UHGV virus genome: UHGV-0244400
Origin: a virus
Reading direction: 5' to 3' (one strand)
Length of the DNA: 40,704 nucleotides
A program made the position numbers and the translations under genes. Shown here piece after piece: positions 1,688-36,516 of this stretch. The notes beneath the pieces were generated by a model that saw only the letters and a program-made list of their open reading frames with translations, did not search any database and was not told the DNA's origin. Position 1 is the stretch's first letter. Every line of letters starts with the position of its first letter.

Positions 1688-2620
1688 ATGGACAACGACA
1701 AAATTGATCAACACAGCGACGAAATTGAAGTTGAGAGCGAAGAAAAAGAGCGCGGCAAAAAAATAGAAATAGATGAAGATCGACTCCCCTCCCGGGCGAT
1801 GGCAATTCATGAGCATATCCGCCAGGATGGTGAAAAAGAGCTGGAACGCGACGCAATGGCGCTACTGTGGTCAGCCATTGCGGCGGGTCTGTCGATGGGC
1901 GCTTCGCTACTGGCAAAAGGGATATTTCATGTCGAACTGGAAGGCGTGCCGGGCAGCTTCTTGCTGGAGAATCTCGGTTATACCTTTGGTTTTATTATCG
2001 TCATTATGGCCCGCCAGCAATTATTTACCGAAAACACCGTGACTGCGGTACTACCCGTCATGCAAAAACCGACAATGAGCAACGTTGGCTTACTTATGCG
2101 GTTATGGGGCGTCGTGCTGCTGGGTAATATTCTCGGGACAGGTATTGCGGCGTGGGCATTTGAATATATGCCAATCTTCAATGAAGAAACTCGCGATGCA
2201 TTTGTCAAAATCGGCATGGATGTGATGAAGAACACCCCCAGCGAGATGTTTGCCAACGCGATCATTTCCGGCTGGCTGATCGCCACTATGGTATGGATGT
2301 TTCCTGCAGCGGGTGAGGCAAAGATTGTGGTGATTATATTGATGACCTGGCTTATTGCCCTGGGTGACACCACTCACATCGTTGTCGGTTCTGTTGAAAT
2401 CCTCTATCTGGTGTTTAACGGTACGCTGCACTGGAGCGATTTCATCTGGCCCTTCGCACTACCTACTTTAGCGGGGAACATCTGCGGCGGCACCTTTATC
2501 TTCGCGTTAATGAGTCATGCACAGATCCGCAACGACATGAGCAACAAGCGCAAAGCAGAAGCACGCCAAAAAGCAGAACGTGCGGAAAACATTAAGAAAA
2601 ATGATAAAAACCCGGCATAA
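1688..2620 (+). CDS. yfdC: Inner-membrane protein YfdC (formate/nitrite transporter family)
   Basis: 310 aa polytopic membrane protein; matches E. coli YfdC in size and sequence character; conserved synteny mlaA-yfdC-argW. Confidence 0.85.
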   Translation: MDNDKIDQHSDEIEVESEEKERGKKIEIDEDRLPSRAMAIHEHIRQDGEKELERDAMALLWSAIAAGLSMGASLLAKGIFHVELEGVPGSFLLENLGYTFGFIIVIMARQQLFTENTVTAVLPVMQKPTMSNVGLLMRLWGVVLLGNILGTGIAAWAFEYMPIFNEETRDAFVKIGMDVMKNTPSEMFANAIISGWLIATMVWMFPAAGEAKIVVIILMTWLIALGDTTHIVVGSVEILYLVFNGTLHWSDFIWPFALPTLAGNICGGTFIFALMSHAQIRNDMSNKRKAEARQKAERAENIKKNDKNPA

Positions 2621-2695
2621 ATGGCGAGGGTTTAAGCAATCGAGCGGCAGCGTACTTACCCCGCAGTCCATTAGCGGGTATACTCATGCCGCATT

Positions 2696-2770
2696 GTCCT
2701 CTTAGTTAAATGGATATAACGAGCCCCTCCTAAGGGCTAATTGCAGGTTCGATTCCTGCAGGGGACACCA
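2696..2770 (+). tRNA. argW: tRNA-Arg (anticodon CCU), integration target of the prophage
   Basis: 75 nt cloverleaf ending ..GGGGACACCA; anticodon loop CUCCUAA; sequence matches E. coli argW as I recall it. Confidence 0.9.
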
Positions 2771-2931
2771 TTTATCAGTTCGCTCCCATCCGTACCAGTC
2801 CGCAAAATCCCCTGAATATCAAGCTTTCCGTAGATTTACAGTTCGTAATGGTTCGCGTCAGATCGTTGACAGCCGCACTCCATGACGGGTAAAAAGTGGA
2901 TAAAATAATTTTACCCACCGGATTTTTACCC

Positions 2932-4089
2932 ATGCTCACCGTTAAGCAGATTGAAGCAGCAAAGCCGAAAGAAAAACCATACCGCCTACTCGATGGTAAT
3001 GGCCTGTACCTTTATGTCCCTGTATCCGGAAAAAAGGTCTGGCAGCTTCGCTACAAGATTGACGGTAAGGAAAAAATACTGACCGTAGGAAAATATCCGC
3101 TTATGACTTTGCAGGAGGCAAGGGATAAAGCATGGACTGCGAGGAAAGACATCTCGGTTGGCATCGATCCGGTAAAGGCGAAAAAGGCCTCGTCTAACAA
3201 CAATTCCTTTAGTGCGATTTACAAGGAATGGTACGAACACAAGAAGCAAGTCTGGTCAGTAGGGTATGCGACTGAACTTGCAAAAATGTTTGATGACGAC
3301 ATTTTACCCATCATCGGCGGTCTTGAAATTCAGGATATTGAGCCGATGCAACTGCTGGAAGTAATCCGCAGATTTGAAGATCGCGGTGCAATGGAGCGAG
3401 CCAACAAGGCCCGCAGAAGATGCGGCGAGGTTTTCCGTTACGCTATTGTCACCGGAAGGGCTAAATATAACCCGGCACCTGACCTTGCTGACGCCATGAA
3501 GGGATACCGCAAGAAAAACTTCCCGTTTCTTCCTGCAGACCAGATCCCGGCATTTAACAAAGCACTGGCAACATTTTCAGGAAGTATCGTATCGCTCATT
3601 GCGACCAAAGTTTTACGCTACACAGCCCTAAGAACGAAAGAGCTTCGTTCCATGCTATGGAAGAACGTCGATTTTGAAAACAGGATTATCACCATCGACG
3701 CCAGTGTGATGAAGGGTCGCAAAATTCATGTGGTCCCTATGTCAGACCAGGTGGTTGAACTTCTCACTACGCTAAGCTCTATCACCAAACCAGTATCAGA
3801 GTTTGTTTTTGCCGGGCGCAACGATAAGAAGAAGCCAATCTGCGAGAACGCGGTATTGCTTGTGATCAAACAAATCGGCTATGAAGGTCTGGAAAGCGGT
3901 CACGGATTCAGGCATGAATTCAGCACGATTATGAACGAGCACGAATGGCCTGCTGATGCTATTGAAGTGCAACTGGCACATGCCAACGGCGGATCTGTGC
4001 GCGGGATTTACAACCATGCTCAGTATCTCGATAAGCGCAGAGAAATGATGCAGTGGTGGGCGGATTGGCTTGATGAAAAGGTGGAGTGA
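2932..4089 (+). CDS. intS: P4-type tyrosine integrase (IntS-like)
   Basis: 385 aa from the first ATG (track ORF begins at an upstream GTG); N-terminus MLTVKQIEAAKP and C-terminal catalytic region typical of P4-family integrases; adjacent to tRNA. Confidence 0.9.
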   Translation: MLTVKQIEAAKPKEKPYRLLDGNGLYLYVPVSGKKVWQLRYKIDGKEKILTVGKYPLMTLQEARDKAWTARKDISVGIDPVKAKKASSNNNSFSAIYKEWYEHKKQVWSVGYATELAKMFDDDILPIIGGLEIQDIEPMQLLEVIRRFEDRGAMERANKARRRCGEVFRYAIVTGRAKYNPAPDLADAMKGYRKKNFPFLPADQIPAFNKALATFSGSIVSLIATKVLRYTALRTKELRSMLWKNVDFENRIITIDASVMKGRKIHVVPMSDQVVELLTTLSSITKPVSEFVFAGRNDKKKPICENAVLLVIKQIGYEGLESGHGFRHEFSTIMNEHEWPADAIEVQLAHANGGSVRGIYNHAQYLDKRREMMQWWADWLDEKVE

Positions 4090-4251: not shown

Positions 4252-5367
4252 ATGACCAGACAACTTAATGGGATACAGGTTTTGCGTGGTATCGCAGCCT
4301 TAATAGTCGTTTTAGGACATAACAGATCTCTGTATGGGCACATAGATAGTGGTTCTTTTATAGACTATTTGACAATGCAGGCAACGTTTGGTGTTGAGGT
4401 ATTTTTCATAATAAGTGGATTCATAATCACTTATTCCACAAGAAATGCTTCAGGAGATTCACTCTCTAGATTTTATTCATTTCTGACTAAGCGCATATTT
4501 AGAATATATCCAATATATTTTATTGTATTAAGCGTATATATCTCTTTGTTTTGTTATAATTTTAAAGAAGGACATTTCGCTCTTTATGAATTTACCTTAA
4601 GTAACATCATCAAATCTTTCTTACTTATACCGCTTAATCCAAATATAAGCCCTCCATTTTATGGATGGGGGACTCTCATTGTGTCATGGACTCTTGGATA
4701 TGAGATGTATTTCTATATGGTTTTTTCATTTTCCTTATTAATTTCCAAGAAATACAGAAGCTATATATCAATGGCAATATTGATGGCTGTATATTTGTGC
4801 CTATCGGTTTCCTTTGGTAATCCAATAGACTTTAATGCCAATACATTTCATGTTCCTTTCTATGGGTATCATAGTTATCTAGGATTCATTGGAAATCCAA
4901 TAATATTTGACTTTGTACTAGGGATGATAATTGCCGAATGTTATTTGCGATTTCATGATAAACTGTTCGAAAATAAAACAATTGGATATCTATCTATTCC
5001 AGTTATAACTCTATGCTTTATGATGTGGCTTACAGGATTTAAATCAGGCCAAGGTATAACCAATACTGGATTTATTGCTTGCTTGATAGTCTTTTGCGCA
5101 ATATGCATAGAAACATCTACCAAGATTGAGTTTCCAAAGTTCATGGTATTGATGGGTACGTGTTCATACTCTCTTTACCTTATTCATGTTCCGATTAAAA
5201 AAATAATAGAGATATATGGAAAGGATATTCCATTCATTCCGCAAGAACCATCAGTAATGATGTATTTAATGTCCATCTCAGTATCAATAAGCCTGTCTAT
5301 ACCAATGTACTATCTGGTAGAGAAAAAATTTATAGATATAGGACATAATATTTCCAAAAAAATATAA
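4252..5367 (+). CDS. Acyltransferase family 3 integral membrane protein; putative O-antigen (LPS) O-acetyltransferase, serotype-conversion cargo
   Basis: Multi-pass hydrophobic protein with the N-terminal LNGIQVLRGIAALIVVLGHN motif typical of acyltransferase-3 (Oac/OafA-like); strongly AT-rich; located between int and tail-fibre genes; start chosen at first ATG (track ORF starts at TTG 4123). Confidence 0.75.
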   Translation: MTRQLNGIQVLRGIAALIVVLGHNRSLYGHIDSGSFIDYLTMQATFGVEVFFIISGFIITYSTRNASGDSLSRFYSFLTKRIFRIYPIYFIVLSVYISLFCYNFKEGHFALYEFTLSNIIKSFLLIPLNPNISPPFYGWGTLIVSWTLGYEMYFYMVFSFSLLISKKYRSYISMAILMAVYLCLSVSFGNPIDFNANTFHVPFYGYHSYLGFIGNPIIFDFVLGMIIAECYLRFHDKLFENKTIGYLSIPVITLCFMMWLTGFKSGQGITNTGFIACLIVFCAICIETSTKIEFPKFMVLMGTCSYSLYLIHVPIKKIIEIYGKDIPFIPQEPSVMMYLMSISVSISLSIPMYYLVEKKFIDIGHNISKKI

Positions 5368-30090: not shown

Positions 30091-31542
30091 TCAGAATCCT
30101 CCTTTCTTCTTGGACTGCGGTTCCTCGCGTTCACGTCGGCGCATTTCAGCAGACTGTTGGTCTGTGTCATAAATAGCGCCATTTGCCTGAATGCAATACA
30201 CCGTGCCGGTATTGCCATGACGATTGAGACGAAGGATTAGTTCAGTTTCACCAGGTGGAACACTGTCATCAAAAGCGCCTTCACGATGGATCCCGACCCA
30301 ATAATCGCAATCCTGTTCAATCTGCCCTGTATCTCGTGAGTCACTTGGTAATGGGCGTTTATTGGTTCTGCTTTCCAGTGCGCGGTTAAGCTGCGTCAGA
30401 AGCACAACAACGCAATCAAGCTCTTTGGCAAGGTTCTTCAGTCCTTTGGTGATCATGCCGTAAGCAAGGTCGTTGCGATCGGCCTTCTCAGCGGTCATTA
30501 GTGTCAGGTAATCGACCAGAATCATGCCAACACATCCTTTTTCTCGCTTGATTCGACGGCTTTCGCTGACGATTTGAGCCAGAGATAATCCCGGCGTGTC
30601 GTCGATGTAAAGCAGGTCTATTTCACTCAAGCGATTGGCTGTTTCTATCGCCCTGTTGAAGTCACCATCGTAATCACCCTGATAGCCGTCATCGGCGTCA
30701 TTTGTCGCCGGAAGGTAAAAAATATTCGGGTTAACACCAGACTTCTGCCCTACCAGTTTTTCCAGTATCTGATCACCTGGCATTTCAAGGCTGAACATCA
30801 ATGCGGGCTTTTTCTCATGCACTGCGCAATTGATTGCCATCTGGCTGTATAGCGTCGTTTTCCCCATCTTAGGGCGAGCGCCAATGACAAACAGAGAGCC
30901 TTTCACCAGACCTTTCGGTGACAGCATCCTGTCCAGCGATGGGATCCCTGTGCTCATTCCCCGTTGTTCGCCTGATGGGTCAAATCGCTTCTCAAGGTCG
31001 CTAACCCAGTCTTCCATGACCTCACCAAATGAGCGAAGGCCGCGACGCGATCCGGTTTTTGCATGGTCTGTCAGTTGCGTGAAAATCGCCTGAATAGCTT
31101 CGTACTTCTGCGTTGCAGTCATTCCGTTGCGGGAATAGAGCAATTCCGTCGCTTCAGTCATGCGGTTGATGGCGTAGCGTTCCATTGCGGTTTCACGAAC
31201 CTGCATTGCATAGGCAACGATGTTTGCTGCGCTTGGCGTGTTCTTTGCGATCTCAGAGATATAAGCAAAACCGCCAACAGACGCCGTTAACGATTTGCGC
31301 TCCAGTTCATCGAAAAGCGTCAGGCCATCTACTGGCTTTTGCTCCCGGTGCATTCTGGTTATTTCTTCGAAAAGGATTTTGTGTGGTCGGCTGTAAAATG
31401 AATCAGGCTTCAGCATCGCCAGAACTTTCTGGACGCGCTCACTGCTGTCATCATCCAGAAGCAATCCACCAATCACCGCCTGCTCTGCCTCGATGCTATG
31501 GGGCGGCGCATAAAAATTATCGGTCATCGTGTTCACCCTCAC
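30091..31542 (-). CDS. Replicative DNA helicase (DnaB family, phage-encoded)
   Basis: 483 aa; Walker A GARPKMGKTT and DnaB-type C-terminal domain; replaces lambda P. Confidence 0.9.
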   Translation of the reverse strand: MRVNTMTDNFYAPPHSIEAEQAVIGGLLLDDDSSERVQKVLAMLKPDSFYSRPHKILFEEITRMHREQKPVDGLTLFDELERKSLTASVGGFAYISEIAKNTPSAANIVAYAMQVRETAMERYAINRMTEATELLYSRNGMTATQKYEAIQAIFTQLTDHAKTGSRRGLRSFGEVMEDWVSDLEKRFDPSGEQRGMSTGIPSLDRMLSPKGLVKGSLFVIGARPKMGKTTLYSQMAINCAVHEKKPALMFSLEMPGDQILEKLVGQKSGVNPNIFYLPATNDADDGYQGDYDGDFNRAIETANRLSEIDLLYIDDTPGLSLAQIVSESRRIKREKGCVGMILVDYLTLMTAEKADRNDLAYGMITKGLKNLAKELDCVVVLLTQLNRALESRTNKRPLPSDSRDTGQIEQDCDYWVGIHREGAFDDSVPPGETELILRLNRHGNTGTVYCIQANGAIYDTDQQSAEMRRREREEPQSKKKGGF

Positions 31543-32407
31543 GAACTTTCAGGTAGGTATTATCGTTAAGCAGGAAATCAAATCCCTTTTTGTGCCAGAC
31601 GGTTCCGCGTTGATGGTTTGGGCGTTCTTCGAACATCCATCGGCAATTTTCGCCTACGTAGCTCAAATAATTTCTCCAGTCCTGCATCGTGAACCCATGC
31701 CCGTCAAGCTGGCGGGTTATCACTCCGGCTTTGCGCCAGAACGTTCGGATCTGGTTTTTACGCTTGTCATTCAGTGCGCGGATTCTTGGCGCTTCAGGAA
31801 GGATTTCGTGGTAAGCATCGACAACATCCTGACAGCTGACGGAAGGTTTTTTCTTGTCAGACTTTTTATCTGCTGTGGCACTCTCTAATACGTCAGTATT
31901 AGAGATATTATTTATATTATTGTTTATGGACAACCGTTGGACAACCGTTGGACAATCTCCGCTGAGAGCCACGCCATTACTGGTGTTTGCGTTGGACAAC
32001 CGTTGGACAACCGTTGGACAATTTTTTGCCTGAAAATCGTCATATTTAACGATTGTAAACAGGCTAAATTTCTTCCCCATCGAGCAAATATTAAGCATCC
32101 CTTTCGACTCAAAAGTCCGTAATAAGCTCCGAACTTTGTTGTCGGGGATGAATGTTTCTCTGACCAGCGACGGGCGTCCAGTTATCATCTGACCGCGATC
32201 AACAGTTATCGGACCGATATCCGTATTGACGACAGTAGATTCGTGATTAGCCTTGAGGATTAAGTGAAGCCAAAGATGTACTGCCTGAGAGTCCTTATAG
32301 AGCCTGCTGTCCATAAACTGGCGGTGTATAGAGACATACCCCATACTGGATGCCTCCTGATGTTGTACAGGGTTATGCCTGTAATCAGCTAACTTAACGA
32401 CGCCCAT
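31517..32407 (-). CDS. Replication initiator protein (O-like, contains the origin iterons)
   Basis: 296 aa; gene contains tandem iterons that encode the repeated peptide CPTVVQRLS; position after cII as for lambda O. Confidence 0.75.
   Translation of the reverse strand: MGVVKLADYRHNPVQHQEASSMGYVSIHRQFMDSRLYKDSQAVHLWLHLILKANHESTVVNTDIGPITVDRGQMITGRPSLVRETFIPDNKVRSLLRTFESKGMLNICSMGKKFSLFTIVKYDDFQAKNCPTVVQRLSNANTSNGVALSGDCPTVVQRLSINNNINNISNTDVLESATADKKSDKKKPSVSCQDVVDAYHEILPEAPRIRALNDKRKNQIRTFWRKAGVITRQLDGHGFTMQDWRNYLSYVGENCRWMFEERPNHQRGTVWHKKGFDFLLNDNTYLKVREGEHDDR
31928..32021. repeat. Replication origin iterons: two clusters of about 2.5 tandem copies of the 11-bp unit ggacaaccgtt, followed by an AT-rich stretch
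   Basis: Direct repeats read in sequence at about 31928..31955 and 31994..32021 with A/T-rich DNA to about 32060; inside the initiator gene as in lambda ori. Confidence 0.7.
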
Positions 32408-33196: not shown

Positions 33197-33213
33197 TTAG
33201 TACATGCAACTAT

Positions 33214-33277
33214 TATCACCGCTAGAGGTAAAATAGTCAACACGCACGGTGTTGGATATTTATCCCTCGCGGTGATA
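33214..33277. promoter_or_regulatory. Right operator OR1-OR2-OR3 with divergent promoters PR (towards cro) and PRM (towards cI)
   Basis: Three 17-bp sites TATCACCGCTAGAGGTA, CAACACGCACGGTGTTG, TATCCCTCGCGGTGATA in the 100-bp cro-cI gap; lambda-type, with OR1 differing at one position from my memory of lambda. Confidence 0.85.
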
Positions 33278-33284
33278 GATTTAA

Positions 33285-34001
<717 letters not shown>

Positions 34002-34087
34002 GTCCGCAGCAAGAGACTTTATACGCATCTAGATGTAGGAAATAAAAAAGAAGATCCCTACAATAAAAATAAGGAAATCATTAAGAT

Positions 34088-34993
34088 ATGTCGATTAACA
34101 GCAATAGCGAATCCCTGCATCAAATGCAGCTTTTCCCTGTAGTAGAGGTTGTTTCTGATGATATTCCTATGGGCGTTCTCAATGATGGAACTCCTTACCT
34201 AACTCTCTACGGTCTCGCAAAGTTATGCGGCATTGATGACACGCCACTGAGGGTGTTCACATCAAACTGGAACACAGAGAAAAACAAACCCAGAGGTCAA
34301 AAAGTAGCTGCGTATTTAGCTGAGAAAGGGTTTCATAACGTCGAAAAGCTATACACTCGCGTTTTAAATAGCTCAAACGTGGAAACTCATGCTTATCCTG
34401 ACTATGTTTGCATGGCTATCCTCCGTTACTACGCTCTAGATGCCACCAATTTTGATAGGTCAGTCGCAATAGGTAATTTTGTTCGCTTGGCTGAGTACAC
34501 GCTTAAGCGAATGATTTATGAAAAGTCAAATTACAACCCAAATGCTTCAATAGATATCTCATTCGAGAACTATAGAGCAAGGATTAAGCTAAACGATCAG
34601 ATACCGACAACTCATTTTGCAGTATTCAGAGAGATAGCTGACATTGCCATGAACCTGATCGGAGGAGGATTCCCAATGGATGACACCACATCTTTGGATG
34701 GAAGTGTTGGAATTCACTGGGGAAAGTATTGGACAGCTAATGGGCTATCTGAGAAATTCGGGGAAAGGGTGCAGTACCCACATTTATTCCCCGAAAATTA
34801 CAGGCAGTCAGCTGCAAATAAGCATATAACAGCTTGGATTTATCCTATTGAGGCACTTGGCGTGTTCAGAAAATGGCTACACGATAATTACGCAATGGAA
34901 AAACTGCCAAATTACCTTGGGAACAAAAAGATTAGTAACGCCTCCGAGCTATTAGAGTCGATAAAAAAACCAGCACTCCCAAATAAGCATTGA
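34088..34993 (+). CDS. Unknown 301-aa protein at the rexAB-equivalent locus; candidate prophage-encoded anti-phage / abortive-infection protein (possibly BstA-like)
   Basis: Complete ORF with SD (AAGGA) 86 bp after the cI stop, no intervening terminator, followed by its own terminator and then OL/PL; AT-rich; no similarity to RexA/RexB; N-terminal region looks like a KilA-N/Bro-N-type domain (from memory, low confidence). Confidence 0.8.
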   Translation: MSINSNSESLHQMQLFPVVEVVSDDIPMGVLNDGTPYLTLYGLAKLCGIDDTPLRVFTSNWNTEKNKPRGQKVAAYLAEKGFHNVEKLYTRVLNSSNVETHAYPDYVCMAILRYYALDATNFDRSVAIGNFVRLAEYTLKRMIYEKSNYNPNASIDISFENYRARIKLNDQIPTTHFAVFREIADIAMNLIGGGFPMDDTTSLDGSVGIHWGKYWTANGLSEKFGERVQYPHLFPENYRQSAANKHITAWIYPIEALGVFRKWLHDNYAMEKLPNYLGNKKISNASELLESIKKPALPNKH

Positions 34994-35004
34994 TCTCCAC
35001 CACA

Positions 35005-35030
35005 ACCCGGCATCTGCGCCGGGTTTTCTT
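35005..35030 (+). terminator. Rho-independent terminator ending the cI operon (hairpin cccggc..gccggg followed by TTTTCTTT)
   Basis: Inverted repeat plus T-run 12 bp after the stop of the 301-aa gene. Confidence 0.6.
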
Positions 35031-35180
35031 TGCCTAACGCCCCCAAAAAACGCATAACCAATTGTATTTATTTCAAAATTAATAGATACAACTCACTAAA
35101 CATCGCAATTCAGATCTCTCGATCACCTTCCCAATCCACACAACCCTGCAAAAAATAAATCTATATAAAAAACATACAGA

Positions 35181-35244
35181 TAACCATCTGCGGTGATAAA
35201 TTATCTCTAGCGGTGTTGACATAAATACCACTGGCGGTGATACT
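35181..35244. promoter_or_regulatory. Left operator OL3-OL2-OL1 and promoter PL
   Basis: Sites AACCATCTGCGGTGATA, TATCTCTAGCGGTGTTG, TACCACTGGCGGTGATA with -35 TTGACA and -10 GATACT; lambda-type. Confidence 0.85.
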
Positions 35245-35283: not shown

Positions 35284-35314
35284 CGCTCTTAAAAATTAAG
35301 CCCTGAAGAAGGGT
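35284..35314 (+). promoter_or_regulatory. nutL (boxA CGCTCTTA, boxB GCCCTGAAGAAGGGT)
   Basis: Matches lambda nutL with one change at the 3' base of the boxB stem (still G-U pairable). Confidence 0.75.
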
Positions 35315-35512: not shown

Positions 35513-35845
35513 ATGGATGCACAAACACGCCGCCGCGAACGTCGCGCAGAGAAACAGGCTCAATGGAAAGCAGCAAATCCCCTGTTAGTTGGGGTAAGCG
35601 CAAAACCAGTTAACCGCCCTATTCTCTCGCTGAATCGAAAACCGAAATCACGAGTAGAAAGCGCACTGAATCCGATAGACCTTACGGTGCTGGCTGAATA
35701 CCACGAACAGATTGAAAGCAACCTGCAGCGTATTGAGCGCAAGAATCAGCGCACATGGTACAGCAAGCCACGCAGTGAAATAGGTGTGACTTGCTCAGGC
35801 CGCCAGAAGCAACGCGGAAAATCAATTCCAGCTTATTACGATTGA
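35513..35845 (+). CDS. N: Antiterminator N
   Basis: 110 aa; N-terminal Arg-rich motif MDAQTRRRERRAEKQAQWKAAN as in lambda N; SD AGGAGA upstream. Confidence 0.95.
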   Translation: MDAQTRRRERRAEKQAQWKAANPLLVGVSAKPVNRPILSLNRKPKSRVESALNPIDLTVLAEYHEQIESNLQRIERKNQRTWYSKPRSEIGVTCSGRQKQRGKSIPAYYD

Positions 35846-36045: not shown

Positions 36046-36516
36046 ATGACAAAATCATGGAGCGTACCTTTTCCTGAATCAGAAACTGAACATGATGGAA
36101 TGCCTGTTTTCTGGAGATTCCAGGCGACAGTTGAAGAAGATGGGATAAAAATATTCGCACTTCAATATATAGCTTTTCATCAGACAGAGCATTATGCATG
36201 GTTGGTTCCTGCGCATTGGATTGTTAATTTTAAACCAGCACCAAATCAGTGGTTACAGGAATGGAAACAAAGGAGAAATAGATATGCAATTAAGAAAGTA
36301 GCAAAAAATGCAGAAAGATCTTTTGCATTCCCAACGAAGAAACTTGCTATTGAAAGTTTATTGCGCCGGAAGAAATACCATTTAATGAGAATAAAACAAG
36401 ATTTGGCTGTTGTATCAACTCTTGTTGATGGGATGAAAAATATTGATACATCAACACCAGATATTGAATATAACTTTGGACACAACCAAGAAACAGAAAA
36501 CTGGGTGTTTTATTAG
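36046..36516 (+). CDS. Hypothetical 156-aa protein in the N-cIII accessory slot (lambda ral/sieB/ea10 position)
   Basis: ATG with SD GAGGTGAGAT; AT-rich; Trp-rich N-terminal half and basic C-terminal half; no family recognised; followed by a terminator. Confidence 0.6.
   Translation: MTKSWSVPFPESETEHDGMPVFWRFQATVEEDGIKIFALQYIAFHQTEHYAWLVPAHWIVNFKPAPNQWLQEWKQRRNRYAIKKVAKNAERSFAFPTKKLAIESLLRRKKYHLMRIKQDLAVVSTLVDGMKNIDTSTPDIEYNFGHNQETENWVFY

What the first reader, a model, noticed from the sequence alone, without database searches (positions are those of the whole stretch)
34002..35035. Unknown 301-aa gene occupying the rexAB slot downstream of cI: candidate single-gene anti-phage system
The immunity region is otherwise lambda-like base for base, but where lambda carries rexA-rexB there is a single AT-rich ORF (34088..34993) with no resemblance to RexA/RexB. 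It begins 86 bp after the cI stop with no terminator between them and ends at its own hairpin terminator just before OL/PL, so it is expected to be transcribed from PRM in the lysogen. That is the hallmark of prophage-encoded exclusion or abortive-infection genes, and this slot is a known hotspot for them. Its size, position and an N-terminal region that looks KilA-N/Bro-N-like make me suspect a BstA-type Abi protein, but I cannot confirm this without a search; if it is not BstA-like it is an uncharacterised occupant of a defence hotspot.
Basis: partly seen in the sequence, partly recalled or inferred. Interest (0 to 1): 0.85.

Follow-up and report, generated by a model that had tools for sequence, protein, structure and literature searches.

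The report
Known BstA abortive-infection gene, already characterised

Summary
A 301-aa ORF (34088..34993, +) starts 86 bp after a lambda-type cI. There is no terminator between them, and the ORF ends at a strong hairpin terminator just before OL/PL.

The BstA guess is also correct. PADLOC BstA scores E=1.3e-105 and PHROG 6287 (BstA abortive infection) scores E=6e-133. Window 34002..35053 is 1052/1052 nt identical to the E. coli NCTC10963 fragment that Owen et al. 2021 (PMC8585504) cloned as the bstA-Ec locus. They showed that it gives phage defence and carries a cognate self-immunity (aba) element. The same locus was deposited in 2007 as a hypothetical protein of phage CL707. It is therefore already known.

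Two results may go beyond the paper:
- In 42 of 68 non-redundant BstA loci, a lineage-specific direct repeat straddles the gene's 5' end at a fixed 56/57-bp spacing (shuffles: 4.0±1.9). The published BTP1 aba repeats have this spacing. In the window the pair is ATCCCT[A/G]CA at 34054 and 34111, which predicts aba-Ec at about 34053..34119.
- A natural E. coli variant has exchanged only the upstream region plus the first 300 nt of the gene. This suggests that aba and the N-terminal DNA-binding domain form one specificity cassette.

The parts
33214..33277 (.). OR1 (33214-33230), OR2 (33238-33254) and OR3 (33261-33277). PR reads leftward (33240..33212). PRM reads rightward into cI (about 33253-33281, placed by offset from the CL707 annotation).
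   Evidence: Operator sequences were found by pattern search, each within 1 nt of the lambda operators as I recall them. PRM, PR and the operators are annotated in the 99.6%-identical CL707 record.
33288..34001 (+). Lambda-type cI repressor (237 aa, HTH_3 + Peptidase_S24).
   Evidence: ORF. PHROG 4 transcriptional repressor, E=1e-61. About 95% nt identity to lambda cI. Pfam HTH_3 and Peptidase_S24 are recorded for the same gene in identical loci.
34002..34087 (+). 86-bp AT-rich spacer between cI and bstA (32.6% GC). It has no terminator and no plus-strand promoter-like site.
34053..34119 (.). Predicted aba-Ec (anti-BstA self-immunity DNA element). It consists of direct repeats ATCCCTACA (34054-34062) and ATCCCTGCA (34111-34119), 57 bp apart, flanking the RBS motif AAGGAAATCA (34071-34080) and the ATG (34088). 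This is a prediction and has not been mapped experimentally.
   Evidence: - Repeat found. The 9-mer occurs only 3 times in the 40.7-kb window.
- The position relative to the conserved protein motif matches the published BTP1 aba repeats: -118/-61 here against -118/-62 in BTP1.
- The family-wide 56/57-bp repeat signal comes.
- Owen et al. showed that the identical locus confers cognate immunity.
34088..34993 (+). bstA-Ec coding sequence (301 aa). Residues 1-12 are predicted disordered. An N-terminal beta + helix-turn-helix DNA-binding domain runs to about residue 120-150, followed by the BstA_C domain.
   Evidence: identity to NCTC10963; AF2 model, pLDDT 88.6; PF26567 BstA_C precomputed.
34115..34129 (+). 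Short inverted repeat CTGCAT-caa-ATGCAG overlapping the second aba repeat. The permissive scan flags it as terminator-like. Its role is unknown.
   Evidence: It lies beyond the point corresponding to the 3' end of the BTP1 minimal aba.
35004..35033 (+). Intrinsic terminator (Timm) that ends the cI-bstA transcript: an 8-bp stem with 6 GC pairs, followed by TTTTCTTT.
   Evidence: (dG -16.7 kcal/mol, z=-2.48) and the Timm annotation in CL707.
35182..35244 (.). OL3 (35182-35198), OL2 (35202-35218) and OL1 (35226-35242), with PL (35216-35244, +) reading into nutL (boxA 35284-35291, boxB 35300-35314) and N (35513-35845).
   Evidence: (N: PHROG 271).

Best explanation
[quoted passage not shown] It sits in the repressor-proximal 'moron' slot of a lambda-immunity prophage.

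**Proposed sequence of events**
1. In the lysogen the gene is most likely co-transcribed with cI from PRM and terminated at Timm (inferred from the anatomy).
2. When a heterologous phage starts lytic replication, BstA gathers at the phage DNA and blocks its replication. The infected cell still lyses but releases no progeny. This was shown for BstA-BTP1. For BstA-Ec, defence itself was shown in Salmonella LT2 and E. coli MG1655.
3. When the resident prophage itself is induced, a short DNA element (aba) at the 5' end of its own bstA locus neutralises only the cognate BstA. Cognate immunity was shown at whole-locus level for this exact DNA.

**My added inference**
- aba-Ec is the roughly 67-bp stretch 34053..34119, bounded by the ATCCCT[A/G]CA direct repeats 57 bp apart.
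- The repeats are probably paired binding sites read by the N-terminal winged-helix/KilA-N-like domain.
- The biochemical activity of the C-terminal BstA_C domain remains unknown.
For: **Family membership**
- PADLOC BstA E=1.3e-105 and PHROG 6287 E=6e-133.
- 42% identity to BstA-BTP1 over residues 2-300.

**Identity to the tested gene**
- The NCTC10963 cloning and sequencing primers NW_761, NW_762/763/765 and NW_790 match the window exactly at 34002-34025, 35032-35053 and 34184-34207.
- The NCTC10963 contig CAADJH010000002.1 encodes the identical protein. It is 1052/1052 nt identical over 34002..35053.

**Function, from PMC8585504**
- BstA-Ec confers phage resistance (Fig S1E-G legend).
- The bstA-Ec locus placed on P22 gives immunity only to BstA-Ec.

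**Anatomy**
-.

**aba prediction**
- Exact repeats of at least 6 nt occur at spacing 56 (15 loci) or 57 (23 loci), against 0-10 loci at every other spacing from 15 to 100.
- 42/68 loci score at least 6 at spacing 56/57, against 4.0±1.9 (maximum 12) in 200 dinucleotide shuffles and 3-6 in control regions of the same loci.
- The repeat positions coincide with the published BTP1 aba repeats.
- Residues 1-12, encoded over the second repeat, are predicted disordered.

**Cassette exchange**
- The CP53 variant differs only in the spacer plus CDS nt 1-300, where identity is 52-85%. Everything else is 98-100% identical.
Against: - Nothing contradicts the BstA-Ec identification.
- Co-transcription from PRM has not been measured. 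Owen et al. themselves write 'presumably'.
- Replication inhibition, focus formation and the DNA nature of aba were shown for BstA-BTP1 (42% identical), not for BstA-Ec.
- The exact window repeat is only 6 nt (8 of 10 when extended), which alone would be near chance. Its weight comes from the family-wide pattern.
- 26 of 68 loci fall below the repeat threshold.
- In close relatives L018 and L019 the first copy reads ATCTCT, so the two copies are imperfect.
- In alphaproteobacterial loci the repeated motif is the RBS motif itself, at a register shifted by about 12 nt. The architecture may therefore not be uniform.
- The repeat does not track the presence of an upstream S24 repressor.
Confidence: 0.95

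Rival explanations
1. The 56/57-bp direct repeats are not the self-immunity element. They are autoregulatory or translational control sites, for example operators through which BstA controls its own expression around its RBS. Under this reading aba-Ec lies elsewhere in the cloned 1052-bp locus.
For: - The repeats bracket the RBS and start codon.
- In alphaproteobacterial loci the repeated motif is the RBS motif AAGGAAATCA itself.
- The repeats occur just as often without an upstream prophage repressor, and also next to IS1595 transposases, where prophage self-immunity is not obviously needed.
- aba-Ec was never mapped below whole-locus level.
Against: - In BTP1 the minimal 63-bp aba is bounded by exactly such repeats. 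A single-base change in either copy abolishes immunity without transcription or translation being needed.
- The window pair sits at the same distance from the conserved protein motif as the BTP1 pair.
- The two roles are not mutually exclusive.
Confidence: 0.15
2. The protein is a KilA-N/Bro-type antirepressor or other regulator of the prophage's own lysis-lysogeny switch, not a defence protein.
For: - Weak structural similarity of the model to viral proteins annotated as antirepressor, KilA-N or Bro-N (best E=6.5e-4, TM 0.2-0.3).
- Weak HTH hits to Phage_CII and Cro-like families in some family members.
- The gene sits inside the immunity region.
Against: - The identical gene confers resistance to heterologous phages when expressed alone from PtetA.
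- BstA expression did not change P22 lysogeny frequency.
- No Pfam KilA-N, Bro-N or ANT hit at E<=1 in any of 62 members.
Confidence: 0.02
3. The gene is expressed from its own promoter, or is silent in the lysogen, and is not part of the PRM-cI transcript.
For: - The spacer is 86 bp and AT-rich (32.6% GC), which often harbours promoter-like sequence.
- Co-transcription has not been measured for this locus.
Against: - There is no plus-strand sigma-70-like site in the spacer and no terminator or stable hairpin between cI and the ORF.
- A single terminator follows the ORF at the position of lambda Timm.
- The same cI-then-bstA arrangement recurs in BTP1, a Klebsiella phage and Pseudomonas phages.
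- Owen et al. report constitutive BstA expression in BTP1 lysogens.
Confidence: 0.1

Closest known systems
BstA-Ec, E. coli NCTC10963 locus E4V89_RS07420 (Owen et al. 2021, Cell Host Microbe; PMC8585504)
   Same: The protein is identical. The DNA is 1052/1052 nt identical across the whole fragment the authors cloned, from spacer through gene to terminator. It has the same position directly downstream of a lambda-type cI.
   Different: Nothing differs in the locus itself. The surrounding prophage is a different mosaic: the window has a 296-aa O-like protein and a 483-aa DnaB-like helicase, while NCTC10963 has 273-aa and 458-aa versions and different genes beyond N.
BstA-BTP1 (st313-td, Salmonella phage BTP1), the founding and best-studied member
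   Same: - 42% identity over the full length.
- Same two-domain layout and same position after the repressor.
- Same 5' architecture of short direct repeats 56-57 bp apart around the start codon.
   Different: - The repeat sequence differs: CCCGCC in BTP1 against ATCCCT here. This fits the published finding that aba elements are cognate and not interchangeable.
- BstA-Ec blocks phage BTP1 whereas BstA-BTP1 does not. BstA-Ec was reported slightly less active against coliphages.
Phage CL707 ORF CL70704 (GenBank EF120459.1, deposited 2007; the record series of Degnan et al., cited by Owen et al.)
   Same: The protein is 100% identical. DNA identity is 99.6% over cI, the ORF and OL, with the same operators, PRM and Timm annotated.
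   Different: It is annotated only as a hypothetical protein, and no function was assigned at the time.
RexA/RexB of phage lambda
   Same: They occupy the same slot between cI and OL/PL, are transcribed with cI in the lysogen, and give an abortive-infection-type exclusion of other phages. This is established knowledge, and the parallel is drawn by Owen et al..
   Different: - There is no sequence relationship: lambda matches only the flanks of the query.
- RexAB is two proteins, a sensor plus a membrane ion channel. BstA is one soluble DNA-associated protein plus a DNA element.
E. coli CP53-type BstA variant (WP_029365274.1; 23 of 5426 complete E. coli genomes)
   Same: Same slot after a 98.7%-identical cI. 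CDS nt 301-906 and the terminator are 98-100% identical.
   Different: The spacer, the candidate aba repeats (GATCTCAGCG / GATCGCAGGG) and residues 1-93 are diverged, with 52-85% nt identity and 24 amino-acid changes. I predict a distinct aba specificity. This has not been tested.

Membership tests
BstA abortive-infection family | Full-length sequence homology to BstA profiles | tested here: met
   PADLOC PDLC02356 BstA: E=1.3e-105, residues 8-286 on profile positions 4-281 of 292. PHROG 6287: E=6e-133, residues 5-301 on 3-304 of 304. 42% identity to BstA-BTP1.
BstA abortive-infection family | Identity or near identity to an experimentally validated member | tested here: met
   100% protein identity and 1052/1052 nt identity to the NCTC10963 bstA-Ec locus. 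All three NCTC10963-specific primer sequences match exactly.
BstA abortive-infection family | C-terminal BstA_C domain | tested here: met
   Precomputed Pfam PF26567 (BstA_C) is recorded for the identical protein and for 115 of 116 homologs. The local Pfam-A scan returned nothing, probably because that copy lacks this recent model. RefSeq names the protein 'BstA C-terminal domain-containing protein'.
BstA abortive-infection family | N-terminal KilA-N(-like) DNA-binding domain | tested here: inconclusive
   - No Pfam KilA-N or Bro-N hit in 62 members. Only weak Phage_CII and Cro-type HTH hits appear.
- The AF2 model (pLDDT 88.6) shows a beta-strand plus HTH N-domain.
- BFVD Foldseek: marginal hits enriched in KilA-N, Bro-N and antirepressor annotations, best E=6.5e-4.
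- Together this fits a KilA-N-like DNA-binding fold but does not prove it.
BstA abortive-infection family | Located immediately downstream of, and co-oriented with, the prophage repressor | tested here: met
   cI at 33288..34001 and bstA at 34088..34993, same strand, with no terminator between them. Actual co-transcription was not measured.
BstA abortive-infection family | Cognate aba DNA element at the 5' end of the locus, bounded by short direct repeats | tested here: met
   - The sequence signature is present: ATCCCT[A/G]CA at 34054 and 34111, 57 bp apart around the ATG, in the same register as the BTP1 aba repeats.
- The family-wide enrichment is 42/68 against 4.0±1.9.
- Function is known only at whole-locus level, from the paper, for identical DNA. 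Fine mapping cannot be done with these tools.
BstA abortive-infection family | Abortive-infection phenotype and block of phage DNA replication | not testable with these tools
   Published: BstA-Ec confers resistance in LT2 and MG1655. Abortive infection, focus formation and the replication block were shown for BstA-BTP1 only.
RexAB exclusion system | Homology to RexA and RexB, and a two-gene architecture | tested here: not met
   Lambda and RexAB-carrying phages align only to the cI and OL flanks, 51% of the query. PADLOC gives no Rex hit. There is a single ORF.
KilA-N / Bro-N antirepressor proteins | Match to Pfam KilA-N (PF04383) or Bro-N (PF02498), often with an ANT or KilA-C partner domain | tested here: not met
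   No such hit for the query at E<=10, nor for any of 62 family members at E<=1. Only weak fold-level resemblance is seen.

The most novel reading that the evidence does not exclude
All BstA systems share one aba architecture: two copies of a lineage-specific 6-19-nt motif in direct orientation, exactly 56-57 bp apart, across the 5' end of bstA. Under this reading the aba element and the N-terminal DNA-binding domain (about 95 residues) form an exchangeable specificity cassette, separate from a conserved effector (BstA_C) domain. If so, the cognate aba of any BstA could be read from sequence; in this window it would be 34053..34119. It would also identify the N-domain as the aba reader, which gives a direct handle on the unsolved question of how aba DNA switches BstA off. 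As far as I could find, Owen et al. and the later papers held in the library describe the repeats only for BTP1.
Probability: 0.6. Interest if true: 0.45.

Novelty: already known. Interest (0 to 1): 0.15.

Why it matters
**As a discovery, it does not matter.** The gene, its defence function and its self-immunity were published in 2021 for this exact sequence. Current RefSeq, PHROGs and PADLOC all recognise it.

**What the case is useful for**
- It shows that a reader working from sequence alone can correctly call a defence gene from its position and shape.
- The follow-up produced a testable, family-wide rule for where the anti-BstA element lies (paired repeats 56/57 bp apart).
- It also turned up a natural domain-swap variant. 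Together these suggest simple experiments on how a piece of DNA can disarm its own abortive-infection protein, a question the original authors left open.

Tried and rejected
- **Local Pfam-A and NCBIfam scans of the protein:** no hit. This is uninformative, because precomputed Pfam lists PF26567.
- **Sequence search of PDB with the protein and with a 62-member profile:** nothing significant. The 8vz6 'Abi family protein' hit at E=0.47 was dismissed as noise.
- **Foldseek against PDB:** nothing below E=0.5.
- **Do the 56/57-bp repeats mark only prophage-borne copies?** I scanned the upstream ORFs. S24 repressors occur in 6/36 repeat-positive and 3/19 repeat-negative loci, so the test does not discriminate.
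- **Do loci sharing a repeat motif have relatively more similar N-domains?** At matched C-domain identity the N-domain identity is 0.54 against 0.42. This is suggestive but confounded by shared ancestry, mostly one alphaproteobacterial group. I do not rely on it.
- **RNA structure in the spacer and 5' region:** none beyond chance. This fits the published conclusion that aba acts as DNA.
- **Degnan et al. 2007:** I looked for it to see how CL70704 was described, but it is not in the library.
- **RexAB and antirepressor readings:** considered and rejected (see the membership table).

Full report

Yes. The ORF list shows a 301-aa ATG ORF at 34088..34993 on the + strand, immediately after a 237-aa ORF at 33288..34001. 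The 237-aa ORF is a lambda-type cI: PHROG 4 repressor at E=1e-61, with about 95% nt identity to lambda cI.

- The spacer is 86 bp. It contains no terminator-like site and no + strand promoter-like site. The region 33995..34140 folds no better than shuffled sequence (z=0.10).
- After the stop codon there is an 8-bp, 6-GC hairpin at 35004..35025 followed by TTTTCTTT (dG -16.7 kcal/mol, z=-2.48).
- OL3, OL2 and OL1 follow at 35182..35242, then PL at 35216..35244, nutL, and N at 35513..35845.
- Lambda and its relatives align only to the cI and OL/PL flanks, 51% of a 2-kb query. The rexAB slot really is occupied by something else.
- The ORF has 41.9% GC against 49.8% for the window.

**2. What is it?**

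- PADLOC's BstA model matches residues 8-286 at E=1.3e-105.
- PHROG 6287, 'BstA abortive infection system, replication inhibitor', matches residues 5-301 at E=6e-133.
- tblastn against phage genomes finds BstA of Salmonella phage BTP1 at 42.5% identity over residues 2-300.
- Relatives in Klebsiella and Pseudomonas phages also lie downstream of CI-like repressors, directly in the Klebsiella phage and with one small ORF between in the two Pseudomonas phages.

**3. It is the published gene itself.**

Owen et al. 2021 (PMC8585504) tested three BstA proteins, one of them BstA-Ec from E. coli NCTC10963 (gene E4V89_RS07420).

- Their Table S2 gives the primers. The gene-specific part of NW_761/764 (GTCCGCAGCAAGAGACTTTATACG), that of NW_762/763/765 (GCGTTTTTTGGGGGCGTTAGGC) and the sequencing primer NW_790 match the window exactly at 34002-34025, 35032-35053 and 34184-34207.
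- A look-up of contigs encoding the exact protein returned the NCTC10963 contig CAADJH010000002.1, at the coordinates listed in their Table S1.
- Window 34002..35053 is 1052/1052 nt identical to that contig.
- The same locus was deposited in 2007 as hypothetical protein CL70704 of phage CL707 (EF120459.1). That record is 99.6% identical over cI, the ORF and OL, with PRM, the operators and Timm annotated.
- RefSeq now calls the protein (WP_000026554.1) 'BstA C-terminal domain-containing protein'.
- The gene is present in 33 of 5426 complete E. coli genomes.

The finding is therefore already known.

**4. How it works: shown versus inferred.**

*Shown in the paper for this exact sequence*
- Expression of bstA-Ec alone confers phage resistance in Salmonella LT2 and in E. 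coli MG1655 (Fig S1E-G legend).
- Moving the bstA-Ec locus with its upstream sequence onto P22 makes P22 immune to BstA-Ec only.

*Shown for BstA-BTP1 (42% identical)*
- Defence works by abortive infection.
- The protein forms foci that colocalise with phage DNA.
- Phage DNA replication is blocked.
- Self-immunity is conferred by aba, a 63-bp DNA element comprising 29 bp upstream plus the first 34 bp of bstA.
- aba works as DNA, in trans, at high copy. It needs both of its terminal CCCGCC direct repeats.

*Inferred here from the anatomy*
- Transcription with cI from PRM and termination at Timm. Owen et al. also write 'presumably'.

*Still unknown*
- What BstA senses, what the C-terminal domain does, and how aba disarms the protein.

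**5. Structure.**

An AlphaFold2 model built on 62 homologs is confident (mean pLDDT 88.6).

- Residues 1-12 are disordered.
- The N-terminal part is a beta-hairpin region plus a helix-turn-helix.
- No family member hits Pfam KilA-N or Bro-N. Some hit Phage_CII or Cro-type HTH models weakly.
- Foldseek against viral models gives marginal hits enriched in antirepressor, KilA-N and Bro-N annotations (best E=6.5e-4).

'KilA-N-like DNA-binding domain' is therefore plausible but not demonstrated here. Among the listed matches none obviously corresponds to BstA_C. The invariant polar residues R165, E182, D204, S206, H232 and Q240 hint at an active or binding site, but this is speculation.

**6. Where is aba-Ec? 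An addition to the paper.**

The paper did not map aba in bstA-Ec. In the window, ATCCCTACA (34054) and ATCCCTGCA (34111) lie 57 bp apart around the ATG. The 9-mer pattern occurs only three times in the 40.7-kb window.

On its own a 6-nt exact repeat is weak evidence, so I tested the family. I collected 80 BstA loci from species-representative genomes, together with five further homolog loci fetched earlier (BTP1, a Klebsiella phage, two Pseudomonas phages, E. coli CP53) and the window itself, and anchored each on the conserved motif G-[VILM]-x-x-[DNE]-G-x-P-[YFWL]. This gave 68 non-redundant 5' regions.

| Measure | Observed at spacing 56/57 | Comparison |
|---|---|---|
| Loci with an exact repeat of at least 6 nt | 15 (spacing 56) and 23 (spacing 57) | 0-10 loci at every other spacing from 15 to 100 |
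| Loci with mismatch-tolerant score of at least 6 | 42/68 | 4.0±1.9 (maximum 12) in 200 dinucleotide shuffles; 3-6 in three control regions of the same loci |
| Loci whose best self-match at any spacing is 56/57 | 25/68 | 1.4±1.2 in shuffles |

- The copies lie at -140..-114 and -84..-58 from the anchor. BTP1's published CCCGCC(A) pair is at -118/-62 and the window pair at -118/-61.
- The motif differs between lineages: GATC.C.. in several enterics, CCGCCA in BTP1 and a Pseudomonas phage, (G)GTCACC in others, and AAGGAAATCA (up to 19 nt) in alphaproteobacteria. Cognate, non-interchangeable aba elements would be expected to look like this.
- I therefore predict aba-Ec at about 34053..34119.

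Caveats:
- 26 loci fall below threshold.
- The copies are imperfect in some close relatives.
- The alphaproteobacterial register is shifted and coincides with the RBS motif.
- The repeats do not track an upstream S24 repressor.

I found no mention of this family-wide pattern in the paper or in later papers held in the library. The library is incomplete.

**7. A natural cassette swap.**

Twenty-three E. coli genomes carry a variant, for example strain CP53, in the same slot.

| Region | Nucleotide identity to the window |
|---|---|
| cI | 98.7% |
| Spacer | rearranged |
| CDS nt 1-60 | 52% |
| CDS nt 61-300 | 73-85% |
| CDS nt 301-906 | 98-100% |
| Terminator hairpin and adjoining sequence | identical; 3 mismatches further downstream in the 107 nt compared |

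- At the aligned repeat positions the variant reads GATCTCAGCG / GATCGCAGGG, so both copies changed together.
- This suggests that aba and the N-terminal ~95 residues travel as one specificity module on a constant effector domain. The N-domain would then be the aba reader.
- A family-wide check points the same way: N-domain identity is 0.54 against 0.42 at matched C-domain identity. That check is confounded by ancestry.

**8. Verdict.**

- Novelty: already known.
- Interest in the finding as stated is low.
- The most novel reading still open is the general aba rule and the specificity cassette. It is moderately interesting and directly testable.

Noticed in passing
L003 (E. coli CP53) 4830-5250, compared with window 34002-34390: A natural BstA variant in 23 complete E. 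coli genomes has exchanged only the spacer plus the first ~300 nt of the gene (52-85% identity). cI, the rest of the gene and the terminator are 98-100% identical. Both candidate aba repeat copies changed together.
   Followed up: partly
L067, L072, L080, L081, L083, L088 (alphaproteobacterial loci), ORFs ending within ~200 nt upstream of the BstA homolog: Six repeat-positive BstA loci have an IS1595/ISXO2-like transposase (DDE_Tnp_IS1595 + Zn_ribbon_IS1595) directly upstream on the same strand, where a prophage repressor would otherwise sit. I inferred which loci these are from their ~305-aa ORF lengths. BstA may travel as an IS passenger gene in these bacteria.
   Followed up: no
window 34053-34056; L018, L019, L003, L020 and L031 repeat copies: In several enterobacterial loci the repeated motif begins with GATC, the Dam methylation site. 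In the window only the first copy has it. This might tie aba activity to the methylation or replication state of the DNA. BTP1's repeats lack GATC, so it may be coincidence.
   Followed up: no
window 34071-34080, and the equivalent position in BTP1, CP53, the Klebsiella phage and alphaproteobacterial loci: The RBS-region motif AAGGAAATCA is conserved upstream of bstA from enterics to alphaproteobacteria. In the alphaproteobacteria this motif is itself the unit repeated 57 bp apart. That is unusually strong conservation for a ribosome-binding region.
   Followed up: partly
L010 (E. coli PK12, CP074031) 2219-3906: The identical BstA protein (DNA 1042/1052 nt identical) sits behind a different repressor (231 aa, with a different Cro and a different N), so the cassette moves between immunity groups.
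   Followed up: no
window 36046-36516 (+): A 156-aa ORF in a strongly AT-rich patch (34-38% GC) just downstream of N matches PHROG 1636, function unknown, over its full length (E=2.7e-112). It is another accessory gene in a variable early-left slot.
   Followed up: no
window 30091-32407 (-): The replication module is not lambda O/P. It is a 296-aa O-like/DnaD-like initiator plus a 483-aa DnaB-like helicase. The prophage is therefore a mosaic with lambda immunity and lambda Bet/Gam but a different replication module.
   Followed up: no
window 34088-34990 (protein): The local Pfam-A scan returns no family for this protein, while the precomputed annotations list PF26567 BstA_C. The local Pfam copy apparently lacks this recent model, so 'no Pfam hit' should be read with care.
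   Followed up: yes
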